Assembly (NCBI RefSeq): GCF_000372725.1
Contig: NW_005202113.1
Coordinates: 248,001-312,000, forward strand
DNA length: 64,000 nucleotides
From: Emiliania huxleyi CCMP1516
Lineage: Eukaryota
Direction: 5' to 3'
Shown here: positions 1,846-64,000 of the stretch, one piece after another
Layout of the letters: each line of letters starts with the position of its first letter
How positions within the stretch are numbered: the stretch's first letter is position 1
Notes under the pieces: generated by a model
What the model saw: the letters and a program-made list of their open reading frames with translations, nothing else
Told to the model about the DNA's origin: nothing
Databases searched by the model: none
Position numbers and translations under genes: made by a program

Positions 1846-2963
1846 ATGTCCAGCGTCGACTTCGTGTGCTCCGAAGAGCAGGCCGCGCTGGTGGAGCAGG
1901 TCCGCGAGCAGACAGGGAGTGCAGAGCCTCGACATGTGCTCATGCGCTTTCTCGTCGCCCGCGACTGGGACACCGGTGCGGCAGTAAAGCAGCTGGCGGC
2001 GACAATGCGTTGGCGTGAGGAGCACAAGGTGGACCAGCATCGCCGGCCCACGCAAGGGCTGTGCGGCAAAGACACCAGCGACTGGCTGTCCTCAAGGCCG
2101 GACGGCCATCTCGTCGTGGGCGGAGTCGAGCTCTGGCCGGCCTTGCGGCAAATGGTGCTCGGAAACCATGAGGGAGCGTGGATCTTTTTCGGCAGCCCTC
2201 CCCCATTCTTCGGCCAGCCGCATGTCACGCCCTTCTCCTACGGTTGATATGCTGCTTGTTAGGTGGGCCGTGCATGGCGCTCGGGCACGATAAGCAGGGC
2301 CGGCCCATACACTTGCAGCGAGCGGGAGTCGCCAGTGGCAAGCGAATGGCGGAGGCGTGCGCGTATTTCGGGCGTGAGTGGCAGCAAGCCTTCATGTCGC
2401 GCAACATCTTCTTCCAGGAGTTGCAGGCGGCCCGCATGGAGGATGCGACACAGCGCTTTGGCCACCTGGTGACACAGCAGGTTGTCATCATGGACATGGC
2501 AGGCATGAGCTTCCGACCGGACCAGCGCGCGCTCACCATTTTCCGTGATTTTGCGGGCATGATGTCGCGAAACTACCCCGAGACCCTCTACAAGCAATTC
2601 ATCATTAACGCGCCAAGAGTGTTCAGCGCGATCTGGCGCATTGTGCGCGTTTGGCTGGACCCAAACACGCGAGAGAAGGTGCGCTACGTTCGGCCCAGGC
2701 ACACAGTTCTCCGCCCACCCACCTGCTCCTCTCGCCCGGTGCAGGTGCACGTACTGGGCTCCACCTTTGCACCAACGCTGCTGCAGCACATTGACGCGCA
2801 CCAGCTGCCTGTCGAGTACGGGGGCACCAGCCCGTACAAGTTCCCCGTGGTCAAAAGCATAGGGGAGGGCGAGGCTCTCTGGAAAGCTGTTGTCCAAGAG
2901 TTCAACGCGCCAGAGCTCTTGTCGGAGACGGGGTGGATGGCTGCGCCTACCCCTCTTGGTTAG
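1846..2963 (+). CDS. SEC14/CRAL-TRIO lipid-binding protein (spliced)
   Basis: LMRFLVARDWD...ATMRWR (CRAL-TRIO N domain), GHDKQGRPI, VIMDMAGM, NYPETLYKQFIINAPRVFSAIWRIVRVWLDPNTREKV and LPVEYGG. Intron near 2679-2744. Confidence 0.9.
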
Positions 2964-3284
2964 ACCGTTCACACCCACCGAGGTCATTAACGCTCTAATC
3001 AGTTAGTGCGCTTTCCGCCTGCTGCTTTCGAGTTTCGTCATTCGTGTCGTATCCGCCTGTTTTCGTATACGCTCGCCGATGGAGCAAGACATTCAAAACG
3101 GTTGATGAGTAACCTGTCGCATAGTTGACACTCTATACGATGTCTCAACTCTTTCCTGGTCCTAAACAGCCGCGTCCGTGCTGGCTCGCGCCGAAGAGCG
3201 CACACACGCCCTCTTCCTCGCCTCTCGCGCACACAAGACAACCAAACGCCCCTCCCTGATTGATAGATACGGCGGAGCAATGGC

Positions 3285-4411
3285 TCACGCGGCTGCTTGC
3301 ACGAGGCCCTTCTCGATCAACGAGTCGACAGCGTCCTTCAGCGCAACCTTGTACCCCTTCAGCTCCCCCAGCTCGGCGAGCGTGCGCGCCGAGTCCACCT
3401 TTCGCGCGGCGCCCTTCACCCCGGACGCGATGTTCTGCCCTTTGAGCGCGGCCACCGGGTGGTCCGGGTACAGCTCGGAGAGCGTCGCGAACACATCCTC
3501 GATCGTCACCATATCGGTGGCGATCAAGTAGCGGCCGTGGGCTGAGTCGTCGAGCATGCACTTGGCGTGAGCGGCGGCGACGTCTCCAACGTGGACGATC
3601 GCCAGGTCGGCCGCGCCCTTGAGGGTGTTTGTGCCCGACACGATGTCCTTGAGGCGCGTCATCGTTCCTGCGGTTGCATTCGACCAAGAGGTGAGAAGTT
3701 GGCGTGTGTAGCGCCGCTGAGGCGGGCCTGCGCGCCGTTGATGTTGGCCGAGGCGATCGGGCCGATGCACAGGTTGCCCGGCACGACGACACGCAGGTCG
3801 AGGCCGTTCTGCTGGGCAAAGTCCACCGCGGCCTTCTCCTGCTCCACCTTGCTCTTGACGTATGTGTAGTGCGTCGCCCACTGCGTCTCGAGGTTCTCCT
3901 TTGAGTCGTACACCTCCGGCTTGGACCACATCGTCTCGGTGAGCGTGCCCGAGTCGTTGCCGCACTCGACGGCCGCGAGCGAAGAGGTGAGGACGACCCG
4001 GCGCACTCCCGCCGCCTTGGCCGCCTCGAGGACCGTGAGCGTTCCCGACACCGCCGTCTTGAGGATGGCCTCGCGGTTGCCTGCCTCGAAGCCGTACTTC
4101 GGATGGACCGCCGCCATGTGGAAGAGGCCGTCGACGCCAGCGAGGGCCTTGACGAGCGCCGCAGAGTCGTCGAGCGAGGAAACCTCGACCACCTTGGCGC
4201 CGAGCGCTCCCACCTGCTCGCTGTAGGCCTTGGCGTCGCGCACAATGCCGAGCACGGTGTGGCCCTGGGCACAGAGGTCCTGGATCACTGCGCGGCGAGA
4301 GGCGGGACGGGGTGAGCGTCAGGGCGGCTCGAGGGTGCGATGTGCAGGGCGCAGCGCACGGTGGGCGGCGATGAAGCCATTGGAGCCTGTGATCGCGTAC
4401 GTAGAGGGCAT
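3285..4411 (-). CDS. NAD(P)-dependent epimerase/dehydratase, DFR/cinnamoyl-CoA reductase-like extended SDR (3 exons)
   Basis: Exon 1 MPSTYAITGSNGFIAAH (Rossmann motif), then FHMAA, VVLTSSLAAV, YVKSK (YxxxK), VHVGDVAAAH and GRYL. Confidence 0.9.
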
Positions 4412-4522
4412 GGTGAGGCTGTCGGAACGACTGGGACTTGCGCGCAATCTTGTCTCGCCTTCGCGGAGTTTTCCTCGCTTGGTCAGGAAGTTCATCAGAA
4501 GAAAAAAGAAAGAAACTACACG

Positions 4523-4606
4523 TGCACGCCCTCCGAGCGGGGCGGGGTCTGCCCGTCGGGTTGCTGCCCTAATCCCACCAGGGGTTGACTGCTCTATTTA
4601 TTTATT
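4523..4606 (+). repeat. Short dispersed element (LINE/SINE 3' end) with (ATTT)n tail; second copy at 35922-36015
   Basis: Both copies share TGCACGCCCT..GAGCGGGGCGGGGT and TGACTGCTCTATTTATTTATT. Confidence 0.6.
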
Positions 4607-4857: not shown

Positions 4858-7800
4858 ATGCAGCTCTCGCCAATCGACAACGTCACGCTCGCGTTTGGCG
4901 CGATCCTCGGCCTCGCGGTCGCGCGCACGCTGCCGAGCTGCGTATCGTACTACGCCTGGTTCAAGTCGTCCGGCCTCGACCTGGCCAACTACCGCGGGTA
5001 TGGTCACGGCGCCTGTCGGCTATTTGGCATCATCCCCGCCCCCTTCCTCTCCGTCCGAGCGATGGCCGTCTCCGGCGTCGCCTTCCTCGCCCTCATCGTC
5101 GCGCCTGCTGCGCCCGGGCTTCTCGCCGCTCCGTGGCGTGCTCCCGCATACCTCGCCGCGCTGGCATTTTACCACCTCTACTTTTCGCAGCTGTACTGCG
5201 AGGCCCACATCGGCGCGCACGTCACCGTCCTGATTCCTCCCGCCCTCATCCTCCTCGCGCTTAGTCCGGCCCTCGACGAGTCGCCCGGCGCGCCAGCAGA
5301 GGCGGCCGCCTTCACCTGCTGGCTGATGAAGATTATCCTCACCTCGGCGTACTGCGGTGCCGGTGTCTGCAAGATCACGCACTCGCTACGGTCGCTCGCG
5401 CGCGGCAGGAGTTCGTGGTGCACTGGCTCGACTCTCCAGGCGTTCATCTTTGAGGCCATGTTTCTCTCGACCCCGCGCACGCACAGCTCATTTGGCGTCC
5501 CCACCCCCTTCTCCTACACGCTCCAAAAGCTCCACCTGCTGTACCCGCGCACCCTCCTCATGCCCGCCTCTTTCGTCGCCGTCGCCTTTGAGACGTTCGC
5601 TCCGCTCATGCTCCTCGCGCCGGCGCACATCGCCTCGGTCCCCTTTGCACTCGTCGGCCTCAAGTTTCACTACGGCATCGCGCTCCTGCAGAACATTGAC
5701 TTCGTCTCCTGGTGGGCGGCGGCGTACGCCTTTCTGCTCGCCGATCCCGCCGCGTGGAGCAGCGGCCTCCTCGTCTGCCCGGTCGACGGAGGCGCCGCGC
5801 TCGGCCTGGCCGCAACCGTGTCGGCGGCGCTCGAGACTGCGCCGCTCCGCGCATCGCTCGCGCTCGCCTACGTCTCGATCCATGTCGCCGCGACTGTGTT
5901 GCTCCGCTTCTTCCCGGACGTTGAAATCTTGCCCCTCTCGTCCTTCCCCATGTTTGGGACGCCGCAAAACGTGTTTGACCGGAGGCTTCGCAAGCATTTC
6001 TGGCTGACGCACAAGCCGCACGCGACGGGGACTCTGAAGAACTACGCATTCCCGTTCACGCGCCCACACACGGTATTGCCCGAGGAGATTGCAAAGCTGC
6101 CGTTCAACTACCTTCTCCTCAGCCACGGCGGCAGCGAGAAGCCAGAGCTTCACTCCAACGTCGAGGTGACACCCGAGCTGCAGGTTTGCGGCGCAACCCC
6201 GTGCGGTGATCCTCCTCCACCCCTCCCCCCCTTCTCACATGCCCCCGTCGCCGCTTTCACAGGCGGCGCTCGACAAGATCCAGAGCCTTGGCAACCAGGA
6301 GCCGGACACCTTCGCCACCGACTCGTCTGCCGCACCGGCGATTCTCCTCGCTCTCGAGCAAGCCAAGGCGGCCTTCGACGCCGCACCTCGCGTCGCGCCC
6401 GAAGCCCCGCTGGTCGCCGCCACCCCACTCACCGAGGCCGCACTCGCCAGCGATGACACTGACAGCGCGGCTCGCGAGCTGCCGAGCACGACCGCTTGGG
6501 CGGTGCCCAGCGAGCTGCCCCTCGGCGAGCGGCTGCGGCTTTGCCTCGTCCGCTCCGTGATCAGCGCGGCGATTGCCCTCTTCAGCGCGGTGGATTTGAT
6601 TTTCGTCGGCGTTTTTGCCGCCAGAGACGCCGCACGCCGGGCGATCTTTGGTGGGCCTGCCCGCGCCGGAGCATGCAAGCCTGCGGTTGTCGTTGTTGGC
6701 GGCTCGTTTGCGGGGCTGAGGGTTCAGCGCGATCTGTCCGCAGACTTTGACGTGACGCTCATCGATCCCAAGGAGTATTTCGAGTACACGCCGGGCGTGC
6801 TCCGCCTCTTCACGCAACCGCACAAGCTGCTCGCCCTCACGGCGCAGCTGCCGCGAAAGCACAACCGGTTGATCGTGGGCGAGGCGACCTCCGTCTCCTC
6901 TGAGGTCGTGAGCGTGCGTGACGCTGCCACGGGCGAGACCGTCGAGCTTCCATACGACTACCTCGTGCTCGCGTGCGGCGCCGGCTACCCGTGTGCGACA
7001 GTCAAGCCGGCGATGGCTGAAACGACGCTTGAGGCGCGGCAGGCCACGTGGAACGCCGCGTCTACCACTCTCGTCGCCGCCAAATCGGTCGTCGTGGTCG
7101 GCGGCGGCTTGGTGGGCGTCGAGCTGGCGGCCGAGATCGTCGAGGCACACCCACGCAAGCCACTGACTTTGCTCACCGGCGGCGACGTCCTCTGCGGCAC
7201 CTTGCCGCGCAGCGTGGGGCGTGCGTCTCTCGCGTGGCTCGTCCAGCGCGGTGTGACGGTGCGCTTCCATGCGGCCGTCGACGACGTCGACACCGGCGCC
7301 GTGCGCCTCGCGAGCGGCGAGGTGCTTTGCGCCGACATCGTCTACGATTGCCGTGGCAATGGTCCCGGAAGGGCCGCGACCCTCTTGAAGGATGGGGCGG
7401 CGTCTGCGGCGACGGACGCCAAGGGTCGCGTCTTGGTCGACGAGACTCTCCGGTGCGCAGCGGGCAGCGGCCGCATCTTCGTCGCAGGGGATGCCATGAG
7501 CCTCCCATCGAGCGACGACCTCAAGCTTGGGCACACCGCCGAGCTCAACGCCGACGTGGTCGCAGACAACATCCGACACCTCTGCCACGCTGCCAAGGGT
7601 GGAGCCCAAGGTGTCGCGACCGGGCTGGCCACCTACCCATTCGGCGCCGTCGGCGCTTCGAAGACGCCGCGCGTCTCCTGCGTCTCGCTCGGCGAGGTCT
7701 ATGGCGTCCTCTCGTTCAACGGGCTTGTGATCGACGGCGCGCTCGCCGCTGTCGTCAAGGCGCTCCTCGAGTGGACCAAGATCGCCGCCTGCGCTGAGCG

Positions 7801-8362
7801 ACCAGTCGGCGTAGCGTTTTGGAAGTTTGGCGACGCGGCCGCCAACTGGATCTCTCGCACCATCCTGTCGCCGCCGCCGGCGGTGCGGCCACTAGTCCTC
7901 TACGACGGCGTCTGCCTGCTCTGCTCCACCTTTGTGCAGTTCGTCCTCGACAACGACGAGGAGGAGATCATCGACTTTGCTCCGCTGCAGGTACCGAGTC
8001 ACTCGTGCCGCGGCTCGTCCGTGCGTCGCCCCACTCACTAGCTGCCCGGCCCGCCTTGTCCACAGAGCGAGGTGGGCCTCAAGGCGCTCAAGCAGGCCGG
8101 CCTCGAGGCAGACCTCTCGACTATGGTCCTCATCGACGAGGCGGGAGCACACGTACGCTCGACTGCCGCTCTCCGCGTGCTCTCGCGCTGCGGAGCGCCC
8201 TTCTCGCTTCTGTATGCGCTCATCCTGCTCCCTCGCCCGCTGCGCGACCTGGGCTACTCGTGCGTCGCGGCGGTGCGGTACCGCCTCTTTGGCAAGGACG
8301 ACGGCGGCTCCTGCCGCCGCATGACAAAGGCGATGCGTGCGCGGTTCCTCGACCAGCGCTAG
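4858..8362 (+). CDS. Fusion protein: HTTM-like membrane domain + FSP1/AIFM2-like FAD/NAD(P)H oxidoreductase + DCC1/DUF393 thiol-disulfide oxidoreductase (exons 4858-6183, 6263-7990, 8066-8362; ~1116 aa)
   Basis: Two phase-0 GT-AG introns join three ORFs in frame. HTTM motifs AYCGAGVCKI..WCTG, FHYGIALLQNIDF, PLSSFPMF. Reductase motifs VVVVGGSFAG, YDYLVLACG, VVVVGGGLVGVELAAEI, IFVAGD. DCC1 motifs LYDGVCLLC, FAPLQ|S, STAALRV, PLRDLGY..VAAVRYRLFG. Confidence 0.8.
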
Positions 8363-62360: not shown

Positions 62361-63206
62361 CTACCACCACGAGCTCCAGGCCCCCGGGCCGGCGGCATCG
62401 CTCACCGCCCCACCACGCCCTGGGCCGGCCGCCGACGGCCGAGGCGCCGCCTCGATCGCTGCCGCGACCGCCTTGACGTCGAGCGTGGCGTCGGGACCTG
62501 CGGCGACCGCTCCGCCACCCTCCTCGGCCCCATCCCGCGCGCAGAAGCTAACCCGCTCGGCGAGGGCGGCGGGCAGGACCGGCCGGACCACCGACCAGAG
62601 CATGCCAAAGGCGGCGGGCGCATCGAGGATGACGAGGGCTCCATACTCGCACGGGAAGGCGGCGGTGAGGAGGCGCGCGTAGTTGAGCTGCGTTAGGAGC
62701 GCGCTCGGCATGACGAAGCTGCTCACGTCGGCCGCGGTCATGCCCGCCAAATCCTGCACGAGAGAGACGCCGTGCGAGGTGCCGCCCTCCTCGCGCAGCA
62801 GCAGGTCCTTGAGCCACCAGACGTGCGCGCTCGCAACCTCGTCCAGCGTGTGCCCCGCGTCAAGCATGCGGCGCAGCGCGTCGAAGCCGAGCACGATCAC
62901 CGGCCGCCCAGCTCCATCCCGCCGAGCAGCGAGCCGTGCGACGCCAAAGCGCAGGCGGTGGGCAGCCTCGGCGTCCGTGCACGGCCCCACGCCGGCGGCC
63001 GACCACGAGAGGTTGGACCGGACCAGCTGAACGCAGCCGTCGGCCGAGCCGGAGGCGTGCCACAGGAAGCACCGCAGCCAGCCGGGCTCCTGCCGAACGA
63101 GCCTCCGCATCGCCGCGGCGACGGCCTCATCCGCGTCCTGGTGAGTGGCGATGGAGAAAATAGCGGCGGTGAGGCTCGGGTCGGCGAGCGAGGATGCGGT
63201 GGACAT
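62361..63206 (-). CDS. CRAL-TRIO domain protein
   Basis: LRCFL, RDGAGRPVIV, GVSLVQDLAGM and FPCEYGALVILDAPAAFGMLWSVVRPVLP..LAERVSF. Confidence 0.85.
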   Translation of the reverse strand: MSTASSLADPSLTAAIFSIATHQDADEAVAAAMRRLVRQEPGWLRCFLWHASGSADGCVQLVRSNLSWSAAGVGPCTDAEAAHRLRFGVARLAARRDGAGRPVIVLGFDALRRMLDAGHTLDEVASAHVWWLKDLLLREEGGTSHGVSLVQDLAGMTAADVSSFVMPSALLTQLNYARLLTAAFPCEYGALVILDAPAAFGMLWSVVRPVLPAALAERVSFCARDGAEEGGGAVAAGPDATLDVKAVAAAIEAAPRPSAAGPGRGGAVSDAAGPGAWSSWW

Positions 63207-64000
63207 TGTAATCCACAGCGGACCGCCGTATCTTATTTAATAAGTTGCGGGTCGAGGGTGGCGGCGTGCCTTGCAGGAGCGAGTGGTTCCGTGCGACTTA
63301 TACCAGGCCACGCACCCGGCAACAGTTCGACGCGACGTAGCGAAGTTGGAGACTGGGTGGGTGGGGCGCCGGATGGCGACATGGCGAGCATTCCGAGCAA
63401 GCTTGGGAGCTCAAAGGGAGGCAACCCGGCAGCCTTCGCTGGTCAGCATGCGGGACAGCTCATATCACAGATTACTTTCTTGCAACAAACACCCTAGCAA
63501 ACACCAAACAAATCTAACACTCACATCATTTGGGGCCTCGACATACAACAAAAACAAAAGCTATGAAGGGTTACAGTCTGTCGGGCATTAAGAAAACGTA
63601 GCATTAAGAAACCCTACCAAGCGATTTCCGCGAAAATCTAAGAAACCACGGCGCGCCGCAGGCGCGCCGGCTGGCAAACGCCGCAGGCGCGCAGGCCTGC
63701 AGGCCCGCGCCAGTGCCGGGCTGCAGCCGCAGCCCAATACTACGCCTCCGCCCCCTCCGTCGCCTCCCCTTCCGCCTCGGCTGCCCCCGCCTCCACACCT
63801 CGCCCTCGACACACACTCACCCAAGTCCCTCCGTTGATACAGTCGGTTGGCGTCGACGACCACAAGGTGCCGCCCAGGGCGCTCCGGTGTGCATATGTAC
63901 CGTACCGTCTCGAGTCTTGCGACCGTGTACGCATATCACGCGCGCAACGTCTAGTGTACCATGTCGCATGCGTTTTTTGCAATACACGCGTAGAGACCCG

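What the first reader, a model, noticed from the sequence alone, without database searches (positions are those of the whole stretch)
4858..8362. HTTM + FSP1-like quinone reductase + DCC1 redoxin in one polypeptide: a candidate self-contained vitamin-K/quinone redox machine
Seen: three ORFs are joined in frame by two phase-0 GT-AG introns (6184-6262 and 7991-8065). The second junction rebuilds the DUF393 signature FAPLQS. The membrane domain has AYCGAGVCKI and FHYGIALLQNIDF. Established: HTTM is the membrane domain of vitamin-K-dependent gamma-glutamyl carboxylase, whose VYFIAGVKKL motif holds the catalytic Lys; FSP1/AIFM2 reduces ubiquinone and vitamin K with NAD(P)H; bacterial HTTM proteins are often linked to DCC1/DUF393 domains. 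Inference: the fusion is a Rosetta-stone link in which the reductase supplies hydroquinone to an HTTM enzyme and the DGxCxxC domain recycles thiols or an epoxide. I do not know of this three-part architecture being described.
Basis: partly seen in the sequence, partly recalled or inferred. Interest (0 to 1): 0.88.

Follow-up and report, generated by a model that had tools for sequence, protein, structure and literature searches.

The report
Self-recharging carboxylase-like algal sunscreen enzyme
A marine microbial eukaryote, likely an alga, splices three parts into one protein (a predicted structural look-alike of the human vitamin K clotting enzyme, a likely quinone reductase and a likely thiol-redox domain), and because close relatives sit beside or are fused to genes resembling those for mycosporine UV sunscreens, it likely performs a still-unassigned sunscreen-tailoring step, powered by a reduced quinone that it would regenerate itself.

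Summary
The fusion is real. Both introns are spliced as predicted in 8 of 8 runs laid, 5 runs hold one contig over all three exons, and a 1119-aa database protein matches at 1110 of 1116 residues. The membrane domain has the GGCX/HTTM fold (Z 17). It keeps the quinol-deprotonating residues (K218, D263 as Glu, W223, H287) but lacks most Glu/CO2-site residues and the propeptide domain, so it is probably not a carboxylase. Relatives carry VKOR instead, and a second, distant HTTM subfamily has the same reductase+DCC1 tail, which supports quinol supply. New: close relatives are fused to a MysD-like ligase or lie beside mysB- or mysC-like genes of mycosporine (MAA) synthesis, and the active site appears to face the cytosol. 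Best reading (0.5): an MAA-tailoring enzyme, most likely the unidentified porphyra-334 to palythenic acid dehydratase, fed with quinol by its own reductase. No mys gene lies in this window, and no activity was tested. The scan earlier noted a cyanobacterial reductase + HTTM-DCC1 module on other DNA; my look-ups showed no note on this family or on the MAA link.

The parts
4858..6183 (+). Exon 1: GGCX/HTTM-fold membrane domain, aa 1-442, about 9 membrane helices plus a soluble part
   Evidence: Model pLDDT 93; Foldseek ranks 1-14 all GGCX; VIA-align Z 17.0, rmsd 4.5, 299 aligned, model 3-403 on GGCX 61-441
5218..5220 (+). His121, equivalent of GGCX His160 (binds substrate carboxylate)
   Evidence: His in 62 of 67 sequences with a residue there
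5371..5373 (+). Lys172, equivalent of GGCX Lys218 (base for the quinol)
   Evidence: Lys in 70 of 70 and 42 of 42
5590..5592 (+). Glu245, equivalent of GGCX Asp263
   Evidence: Glu in 74 of 76
5668..5670 (+). His271, equivalent of GGCX His287
   Evidence: His in 74 of 74
5950..5952 (+). Met365, probable equivalent of GGCX Met401 (inferred from motif and aligned range, not from a residue-level alignment)
   Evidence: Met in 65 of 68; inside the superposed range
6184..6262 (+). Intron 1, 79 nt, GT..AG, phase 0
   Evidence: skipped in 8 of 8 runs
6263..6394 (+). Start of exon 2: C-terminal segment of the membrane enzyme, aa 443-486
   Evidence: Matched in homologs that lack the fusion
6536..6622 (+). 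Hydrophobic helix with a central Asp (D553) that belongs to the reductase family; likely a membrane anchor, spanning or not unresolved
   Evidence: Hydropathy 2.4; Asp in 40 of 44
6683..7868 (+). AIFM2/FSP1-like FAD/NAD(P)H oxidoreductase domain
   Evidence: Pfam Pyr_redox_2 E 2.7e-25; best PDB hit AIFM2 E 1.2e-11, NDH-2 next at 1.5e-10
7895..7990 (+). DCC1-like domain, first part, with DGVCLLC at 7904-7924
7991..8065 (+). Intron 2, 75 nt, GT..AG, phase 0
   Evidence: skipped in 8 of 8 runs
8066..8362 (+). Exon 3: rest of the DCC1-like domain and stop codon
   Evidence: whole domain 79 bits against a cut-off of 27.8 in P0276

Best explanation
One spliced gene encodes a membrane domain predicted to have the vitamin K carboxylase (GGCX/HTTM) fold, joined to a likely quinone reductase and a DCC1 domain, and it most likely tailors mycosporine-like amino acid (MAA) sunscreens on the cytosolic face of a membrane, using a quinol that its own reductase would regenerate. 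Proposed cycle: (1) the FSP1-like domain reduces a membrane quinone with NAD(P)H (inferred, about 0.75). (2) Lys172/Glu245 deprotonate the quinol, which reacts with O2 to give a strong base and a quinone epoxide, as in GGCX (inferred from kept residues). (3) His121 holds the carboxylate of a disubstituted MAA; the base removes the neighbouring C-H, and with no CO2 site the carbanion eliminates the Thr/Ser hydroxyl, e.g. porphyra-334 to palythenic acid (MAA substrate about 0.55; this exact reaction about 0.3). (4) The DCC1 CxxC returns the epoxide to quinone, the step VKOR would do in VKOR-fused relatives (a guess, about 0.25). Shown here: gene structure, conservation, fusions, neighbours. Predicted: fold. 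Inferred: all chemistry, the quinone used and the topology.
For: Fold and residues. The best viral match is the Yasminevirus epoxidase-desaturase (E 4.7e-3), which shares the D263-to-Glu and N290-to-Ile changes (PMC13486548, passages). Quinol supply: the same domain is fused to VKOR with CVVC and the loop Cys pair intact in one clade of 5 rows. A distant HTTM subfamily (P0101; 29% over 198 aa, against 48% over 384 aa for its reductase and 64% for DCC1) has the same tail, and its model also ranks GGCX first (Z 13.1, rmsd 4.4, 243 aligned). MAA link: P0092 (3 of 3 cluster members 897 aa) and L019 join the domain to a MysD-like ligase. L006 (68% identical to the window domain) is divergent from a mysC-like gene, and L007 (57%) is followed by a mysB-SDR fusion. 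For all three, the best match among 72,556 plasmid records is the Nostoc HK-01 mys cluster (E 2e-62, 3e-71, 1e-62). They carry the same active-site residues as the window protein (12 or 13 of 13 positions). Topology: the active-site side is richer in K/R in 49 of 49 full-length sequences; the window has 8 K/R there and 0 on the other side. MysD follows with no hydrophobic segment between (max 0.59). Open step: PMC6997860 (passages) says the enzymes for this dehydration and decarboxylation are unknown. PMC3083659 (passages) reports palythenic acid in dinoflagellates and in Phaeocystis-dominated samples.
Against: No mysA-D homolog lies in the 64 kb window or in L004 from the same species, and only 4.8 kb upstream is visible; no genome is held. 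The two loci with the reductase fusion and a visible neighbour (L005, L011) have a SnoaL-like gene, not a mys gene, so MAA linkage and reductase fusion were never seen in the same locus. Only 3 of 16 non-self loci show a mys gene, though 11 are too short to show any neighbour. Most family members show no fusion, and some are fused to a methyltransferase or an ion-channel domain. Members occur in Amoebophrya and Picozoa, which lack plastids (recalled); whether they make MAAs I do not know. Dehydration is redox-neutral, so spending quinol and O2 on it is costly; another MAA reaction could fit as well. GGCX's own lumenal pocket is positively charged (bioRxiv 2025.02.09.637231, passage), which weakens the K/R test, and I set the helix limits myself. 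The sequence alignment to GGCX is weak (E 0.1) and covers GGCX 114-305 only.
Confidence: 0.5

Rival explanations
1. A membrane redox or antioxidant machine: the reductase keeps quinones reduced as radical traps, as FSP1 does, and the HTTM domain acts only as a quinol oxidase/epoxidase or modifies a lipid, as proposed for the giant-virus module.
For: AIFM2/FSP1 is the best PDB match. The same reductase clade also fuses to DoxX/MauE, CRAL-TRIO and DCC1 alone. The viral epoxidase-desaturase is the nearest viral fold, and a CRAL-TRIO gene lies 2 kb upstream.
Against: Does not explain the mysB, mysC and mysD links or the kept His160 equivalent; burning quinol to epoxide would oppose an antioxidant role.
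Confidence: 0.2
2. A true vitamin K-dependent carboxylase that adds CO2 to a protein Glu or, like MloH, to a small-molecule residue.
For: GGCX fold reaching GGCX residue 441, including the 374-418 region that the viral enzymes lack; K218, H160, W223, H287, F286, A214 and S300 equivalents kept. F282 (73 of 74) is one position from the F299 slot.
Against: N159 is Ala, N158 Gly, N290 Ile, F294 Gln and F299 Val in the gapless alignment; N159A and F299A impair GGCX (PMC12647623, passages). There is no room for the 200-aa propeptide domain or the Arch domain. Y395 and R436 could not be mapped.
Confidence: 0.12
3. The domains are joined for co-expression or by lineage-specific shuffling; the HTTM domain works without quinol (as a plain base catalyst, perhaps on MAAs) and the reductase serves something else.
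For: Most family members stand alone; partners vary; P0094/P0095 look like derivatives that kept only the first helix of the membrane domain. None of 5 bacterial or archaeal plasmid loci read has an annotated quinone reductase of this kind beside the HTTM-like gene.
Against: Two unrelated vitamin K reductase types fused to one domain, and the same tail on two HTTM subfamilies, are unlikely by chance.
Confidence: 0.15

Closest known systems
Human gamma-glutamyl carboxylase GGCX (PDB 9L6Q, 9WF3) with VKOR and FSP1 (PMC12647623, PMC13187478, PMC9929328, PMC9402432)
   Same: Membrane fold; K218/D263/W223/H287/H160 equivalents; pairing with FSP1-like or VKOR reductases
   Different: One polypeptide; most Glu/CO2-site residues changed; no propeptide or Arch domain; active site probably cytosolic; extra DCC1 domain; 12-13% identity
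Giant-virus vitamin K module, VKOR + epoxidase(-desaturase) (PMC13486548; Yasminevirus A0A5K0UBG6)
   Same: Carboxylase-like domain with K218, D263 as Glu, N290 as Ile; linked to a quinone reductase; proposed non-carboxylase chemistry
   Different: The algal protein keeps the region matching GGCX 374-418, has no desaturase, uses an FSP1-like flavoenzyme + DCC1, and its family is linked to mys genes
Bacterial HTTM-DCC1 + DUF5819 pairs and MloH (bioRxiv 10.64898/2026.08.19.745780)
   Same: HTTM with DCC1; seen here as adjacent genes on Novosphingobium and Pantoea plasmids
   Different: The bacterial enzyme is split in two; no fused flavoreductase reported in the passages read
Linaridin HTTM proteins (CrdG; PMC9927463)
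   Same: HTTM protein in small-molecule or peptide tailoring; a weak relative lies beside an alpha/beta hydrolase and a DUF5819-like gene. That linaridins carry dehydrated Thr is recalled, from no call.
   Different: Peptide substrate, split enzyme, mechanism stated as unclear in that paper
MAA tailoring enzymes MysH/MysI/MysF (PMC10666671, section 13)
   Same: Association with mysB/C/D and SDR genes
   Different: Those are soluble Fe/2OG dioxygenases or methyltransferases; that section names no membrane or HTTM enzyme and no dehydratase

Membership tests
HTTM/GGCX fold | Structural match to the GGCX membrane domain | tested here: met
   Foldseek E 5e-5, prob 1.0; Z 17.0, rmsd 4.5, 299 aligned, next unrelated row Z 6.3
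Pfam HTTM PF05090 | Score above the gathering cut-off of 27.7 bits | tested here: not met
   No hit for the window domain or for 76 of 76 close members; relatives found by the family profile do pass (P0271 30.6, P0266 36.1, P0257 30.5)
Vitamin K-dependent carboxylase | Catalytic Lys218 with acidic partner at 263, Trp223, His287 | tested here: met
   K172, E245, W187, H271; GGCX numbers counted by me on the printed alignment
Vitamin K-dependent carboxylase | Glu-binding Asn159/His160/Tyr395 | tested here: not met
   His kept, Asn159 is Ala (65 of 67); Tyr395 not mappable
Vitamin K-dependent carboxylase | CO2-stacking Phe299 | tested here: inconclusive
   Val283 in the gapless alignment, conserved Phe282 one position off
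Vitamin K-dependent carboxylase | Propeptide-binding (405-604) and Arch (605-730) domains | tested here: not met
   Only about 120 residues follow Met365 before the linker; best superpositions end near GGCX 441-444 (domain limits)
Vitamin K-dependent carboxylase | Quinol/O2/CO2-dependent carboxylation | not testable with these tools
   Needs an assay
AIFM2/FSP1 | Two dinucleotide-binding motifs, Pyr_redox_2 fold | tested here: met
   GGSFAG and GGGLVG in the sequence
AIFM2/FSP1 | Orthology to FSP1 rather than NDH-2 | tested here: inconclusive
   AIFM2 1.2e-11 against NDH-2 1.5e-10; no tree with reference enzymes was built
AIFM2/FSP1 | NAD(P)H:quinone reductase activity | not testable with these tools
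   Needs an assay
DCC1/DUF393 | DxxCxxC motif and Pfam cut-off | tested here: met
   DGVCLLC; 79.2 bits in P0276
MAA tailoring enzyme | Linkage to mysA-D in this organism | tested here: inconclusive
   None within the window; genome not held. Linked in close relatives L006, L007, L019, P0092
MAA tailoring enzyme | Conversion of an MAA | not testable with these tools
   Needs expression and LC-MS

The most novel reading that the evidence does not exclude
Marine algae use a vitamin K carboxylase-type superbase, turned to face the cytosol, as the missing MAA dehydratase that makes palythenic acid (the route to the UVA sunscreens usujirene and palythene), and this gene packs a complete VKOR-free vitamin K cycle into one chain, with DCC1 as a new quinone-epoxide reductase.
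Probability: 0.2. Interest if true: 0.93.

Novelty: new variant of a known kind. Interest (0 to 1): 0.8.

Why it matters
It gives a concrete candidate for an MAA tailoring step described as having no known enzyme, in compounds of ecological and sunscreen interest. It suggests a substrate class for eukaryotic HTTM proteins outside animals and a non-carboxylase use of GGCX chemistry. It shows the GGCX-FSP1 and GGCX-VKOR partnerships of the animal vitamin K cycle as natural gene fusions in protists. It also sets up a direct test of what DCC1 does, since lineages carry either VKOR or reductase+DCC1 on the same enzyme.

Tried and rejected
Artefact of reading across two genes: rejected. Sequence searches of the PDB with the domain, profiles A1 and A2, P0271 and P0266 found no GGCX; only profile A3 did, at E 0.1. 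LMF1 membership: weak hits in 23 of 76 members, none reported for the window above cut-off; read as clan-level likeness. No relative of the family was confirmed in viral contigs or prokaryote genomes with the patterns used, nor in metagenomes with P0271, nor on plasmids with the window domain. These word-based searches do not show absence. The trio in bacterial operons was not found in the 5 plasmid loci read; this is a small sample. Reductase tree (51 of 51 rows, quick method): P0101 lies outside the 97% clade that holds the window-type fusions; no clade test was run. HTTM tree (94 rows, FastTree, 26 redundant ids left out and only near-full-length hits kept): P0101 is a long branch and its place is unsure. 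The P0318 model has pLDDT 62, was built on an alignment mostly of other subfamilies, and gave Foldseek E 0.17, so it is supporting only. Pfam scan of 32 further long window ORFs showed no MAA or quinone gene. Paper searches: HTTM+DCC1 1 paper; carboxylase+HTTM+cryo-EM 0 (25); HTTM alone 92, 40 listed, none on algae or MAAs by title (54); linaridin+epimerase+vitamin K 0 (56); carboxylase+haptophyte 0 (90). I did not run a direct mycosporine+HTTM search, so novelty of that link rests on these listings and on two MAA reviews (PMC10666671 section 13; PMC10384724, 0 occurrences of 'vitamin K' or 'carboxylase'). The genome-neighbourhood data behind the first review were not seen.
Full report
Observation. 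Contigs of 8 of 8 runs laid skip both introns at these places; 5 runs from 4 studies hold one contig over all exons. Three of the eight are on record as RNA, five are guessed, and all are assemblies. P0276 in the protein collection is the full product, 1110 of 1116 identical. Intron 1 falls inside the membrane enzyme, whose last ~44 residues open exon 2. The organism is a GC-rich marine eukaryote; the nearest Atlas clusters are mostly Haptophyta, so a haptophyte is likely but not shown.

Membrane domain. Pfam and PDB sequence searches are nearly silent. An AlphaFold2 model on 76 homologs (pLDDT 93) ranks GGCX at 1-14 in Foldseek and gives Z 17.0 over model 3-403 and GGCX 61-441, with the next unrelated fold at 6.3. 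The best viral match is the Yasminevirus epoxidase-desaturase. A profile that includes shorter relatives hits only GGCX in the PDB, at E 0.1; counting along that alignment and alignment A3 gives the residue map. Kept: K218=K172, D263=E245, W223=W187, H287=H271, F286=F270, A214=A168, S300=S284, H160=H121. Changed: N158 to G, N159 to A, N290 to I, F294 to Q, F299 to V (Phe one position off). Roles of these residues come from passages of PMC12647623, PMC13187478 and bioRxiv 2025.02.09.637231. The quinol-activating centre is therefore intact, while the Glu/CO2 site and the propeptide domain are not. The viral enzymes show the same D-to-E and N-to-I changes (PMC13486548, first part and passages).

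Partners. The reductase fusion recurs in P0089, the P0093 cluster and L005/L011. HTTM-DCC1 without reductase occurs in P0003/P0006, P0009 and L006. One clade has VKOR at the N-terminus with its Cys residues intact. P0101, with 1140-1491-aa members on several contigs, has the same reductase+DCC1 tail on a distant HTTM domain, which points to a second joining, though no clade test was run. In animals both VKOR and FSP1 supply GGCX with quinol, while VKOR handles the epoxide (PMC9402432 and PMC9929328, passages). Most family members show no fusion, and gene callers cut many at introns.

Mycosporine link. P0092 joins the domain to a D-Ala-D-Ala-ligase-like domain whose best plasmid match (42%, E 2e-62; the vanB rows score 6e-24) is the ligase of a Nostoc cluster of DHQS, O-methyltransferase, ATP-grasp, PhyH and Ddl-like genes, the mysA-B-C-H-D layout of PMC10666671 (passages and section 13). 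L019 shows the same join. Of 17 loci from metagenomes, one is the window's species and 11 are too short to show neighbours. Of the other five, L006 has a mysC-like gene divergent from HTTM-DCC1, L007 a mysB-SDR fusion downstream and an amino-acid transporter upstream, L019 the MysD join, and L005 and L011, probably one lineage, a SnoaL-like gene. The mysB- and mysC-like genes return the same Nostoc cluster as best hit. L006 and L007 are 68% and 57% identical to the window domain with the same active-site residues. The window itself has no mys gene.

Topology. GGCX's site faces the ER lumen. Here the active-site side averages 9.1 K/R against 2.5 on the other, which is acidic, with the same direction in 49 of 49 full-length members of A1 and 32 of 34 of A2. 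An ATP-using ligase follows that side directly in P0092. Both suggest an inverted, cytosol-facing enzyme, which suits a soluble substrate and puts reductase and DCC1 on the side with NAD(P)H if the helix at aa 534-562 does not cross the membrane. That last point is unresolved.

Mechanism. The simplest account joins these facts: quinol from the reductase, a GGCX-type base, a bound carboxylate and no CO2 site, acting on an MAA. Removing the proton next to the Thr carboxylate of porphyra-334 and losing the hydroxyl gives palythenic acid, a step proposed in PMC3083659 and said to lack an enzyme in PMC6997860 (passages). That linaridin HTTM systems dehydrate Thr is recalled, not checked; PMC9927463 says only that the mechanism is unclear. 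Other MAA reactions remain possible, and the epoxide role of DCC1 is a guess from its alternation with VKOR. MAA linkage and reductase fusion were not seen together in one locus.

Verdict. A real, conserved, three-part gene; a GGCX-fold enzyme but not shown to be a carboxylase, and failing two of that family's defining features. It is a new variant of a known kind of vitamin K/quinol module. I found no description of the architecture or of the MAA link in the searches listed under Tried and rejected, which did not include a direct mycosporine+HTTM query. Interest 0.8.

Noticed in passing
window 3150-4411 (-): NAD-dependent epimerase/dehydratase-family gene with two spliced introns, divergent from the fusion gene across about 450 bp. 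SDRs of unknown role are noted in MAA clusters; no link shown.
   Followed up: partly
window 1895-3057 (+) and 62364-63236 (-): Two CRAL-TRIO genes; P0115 fuses CRAL-TRIO to the same reductase+DCC1. The first intron of the upstream one (joint 2190-2262) was not reported as GT..AG.
   Followed up: no
P0114, P0121: The same reductase clade fused to one or two DoxX/MauE membrane domains, another likely quinone-linked pairing.
   Followed up: no
P0094, P0095: Reductase+DCC1 proteins whose N-terminus resembles the first helix of the membrane domain, as if its core had been deleted.
   Followed up: partly
L007 4501-6462 (+): mysB-like O-methyltransferase fused to a short-chain dehydrogenase, in a eukaryote-like MAA cluster with an amino-acid transporter.
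   Followed up: partly
L006 229-1512 (-): Old-yellow-enzyme-type flavin oxidoreductase just downstream of the mysC-like gene; a candidate MAA side-chain reductase.
   Followed up: no
P0240, P0164, P0014/P0017/P0177, P0101 N-terminus: Other fusions of the family: methyltransferase, ion-channel domain, a shared unnamed ~120-aa C-terminal domain, and a methyltransferase-like plus unknown N-terminal region.
   Followed up: no
L002 4554-6902 (+): Streptomyces plasmid cluster combining lanthipeptide enzymes with an HTTM, alpha/beta hydrolase and DUF5819-like set.
   Followed up: no
window 7868-7880: In-frame insertions of 3, 6 or 9 nt in the reductase-DCC1 linker among the runs laid.
   Followed up: no
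window 4522-4603: A short stretch between the divergent genes matches many unrelated contigs, suggesting a small dispersed repeat.
   Followed up: no
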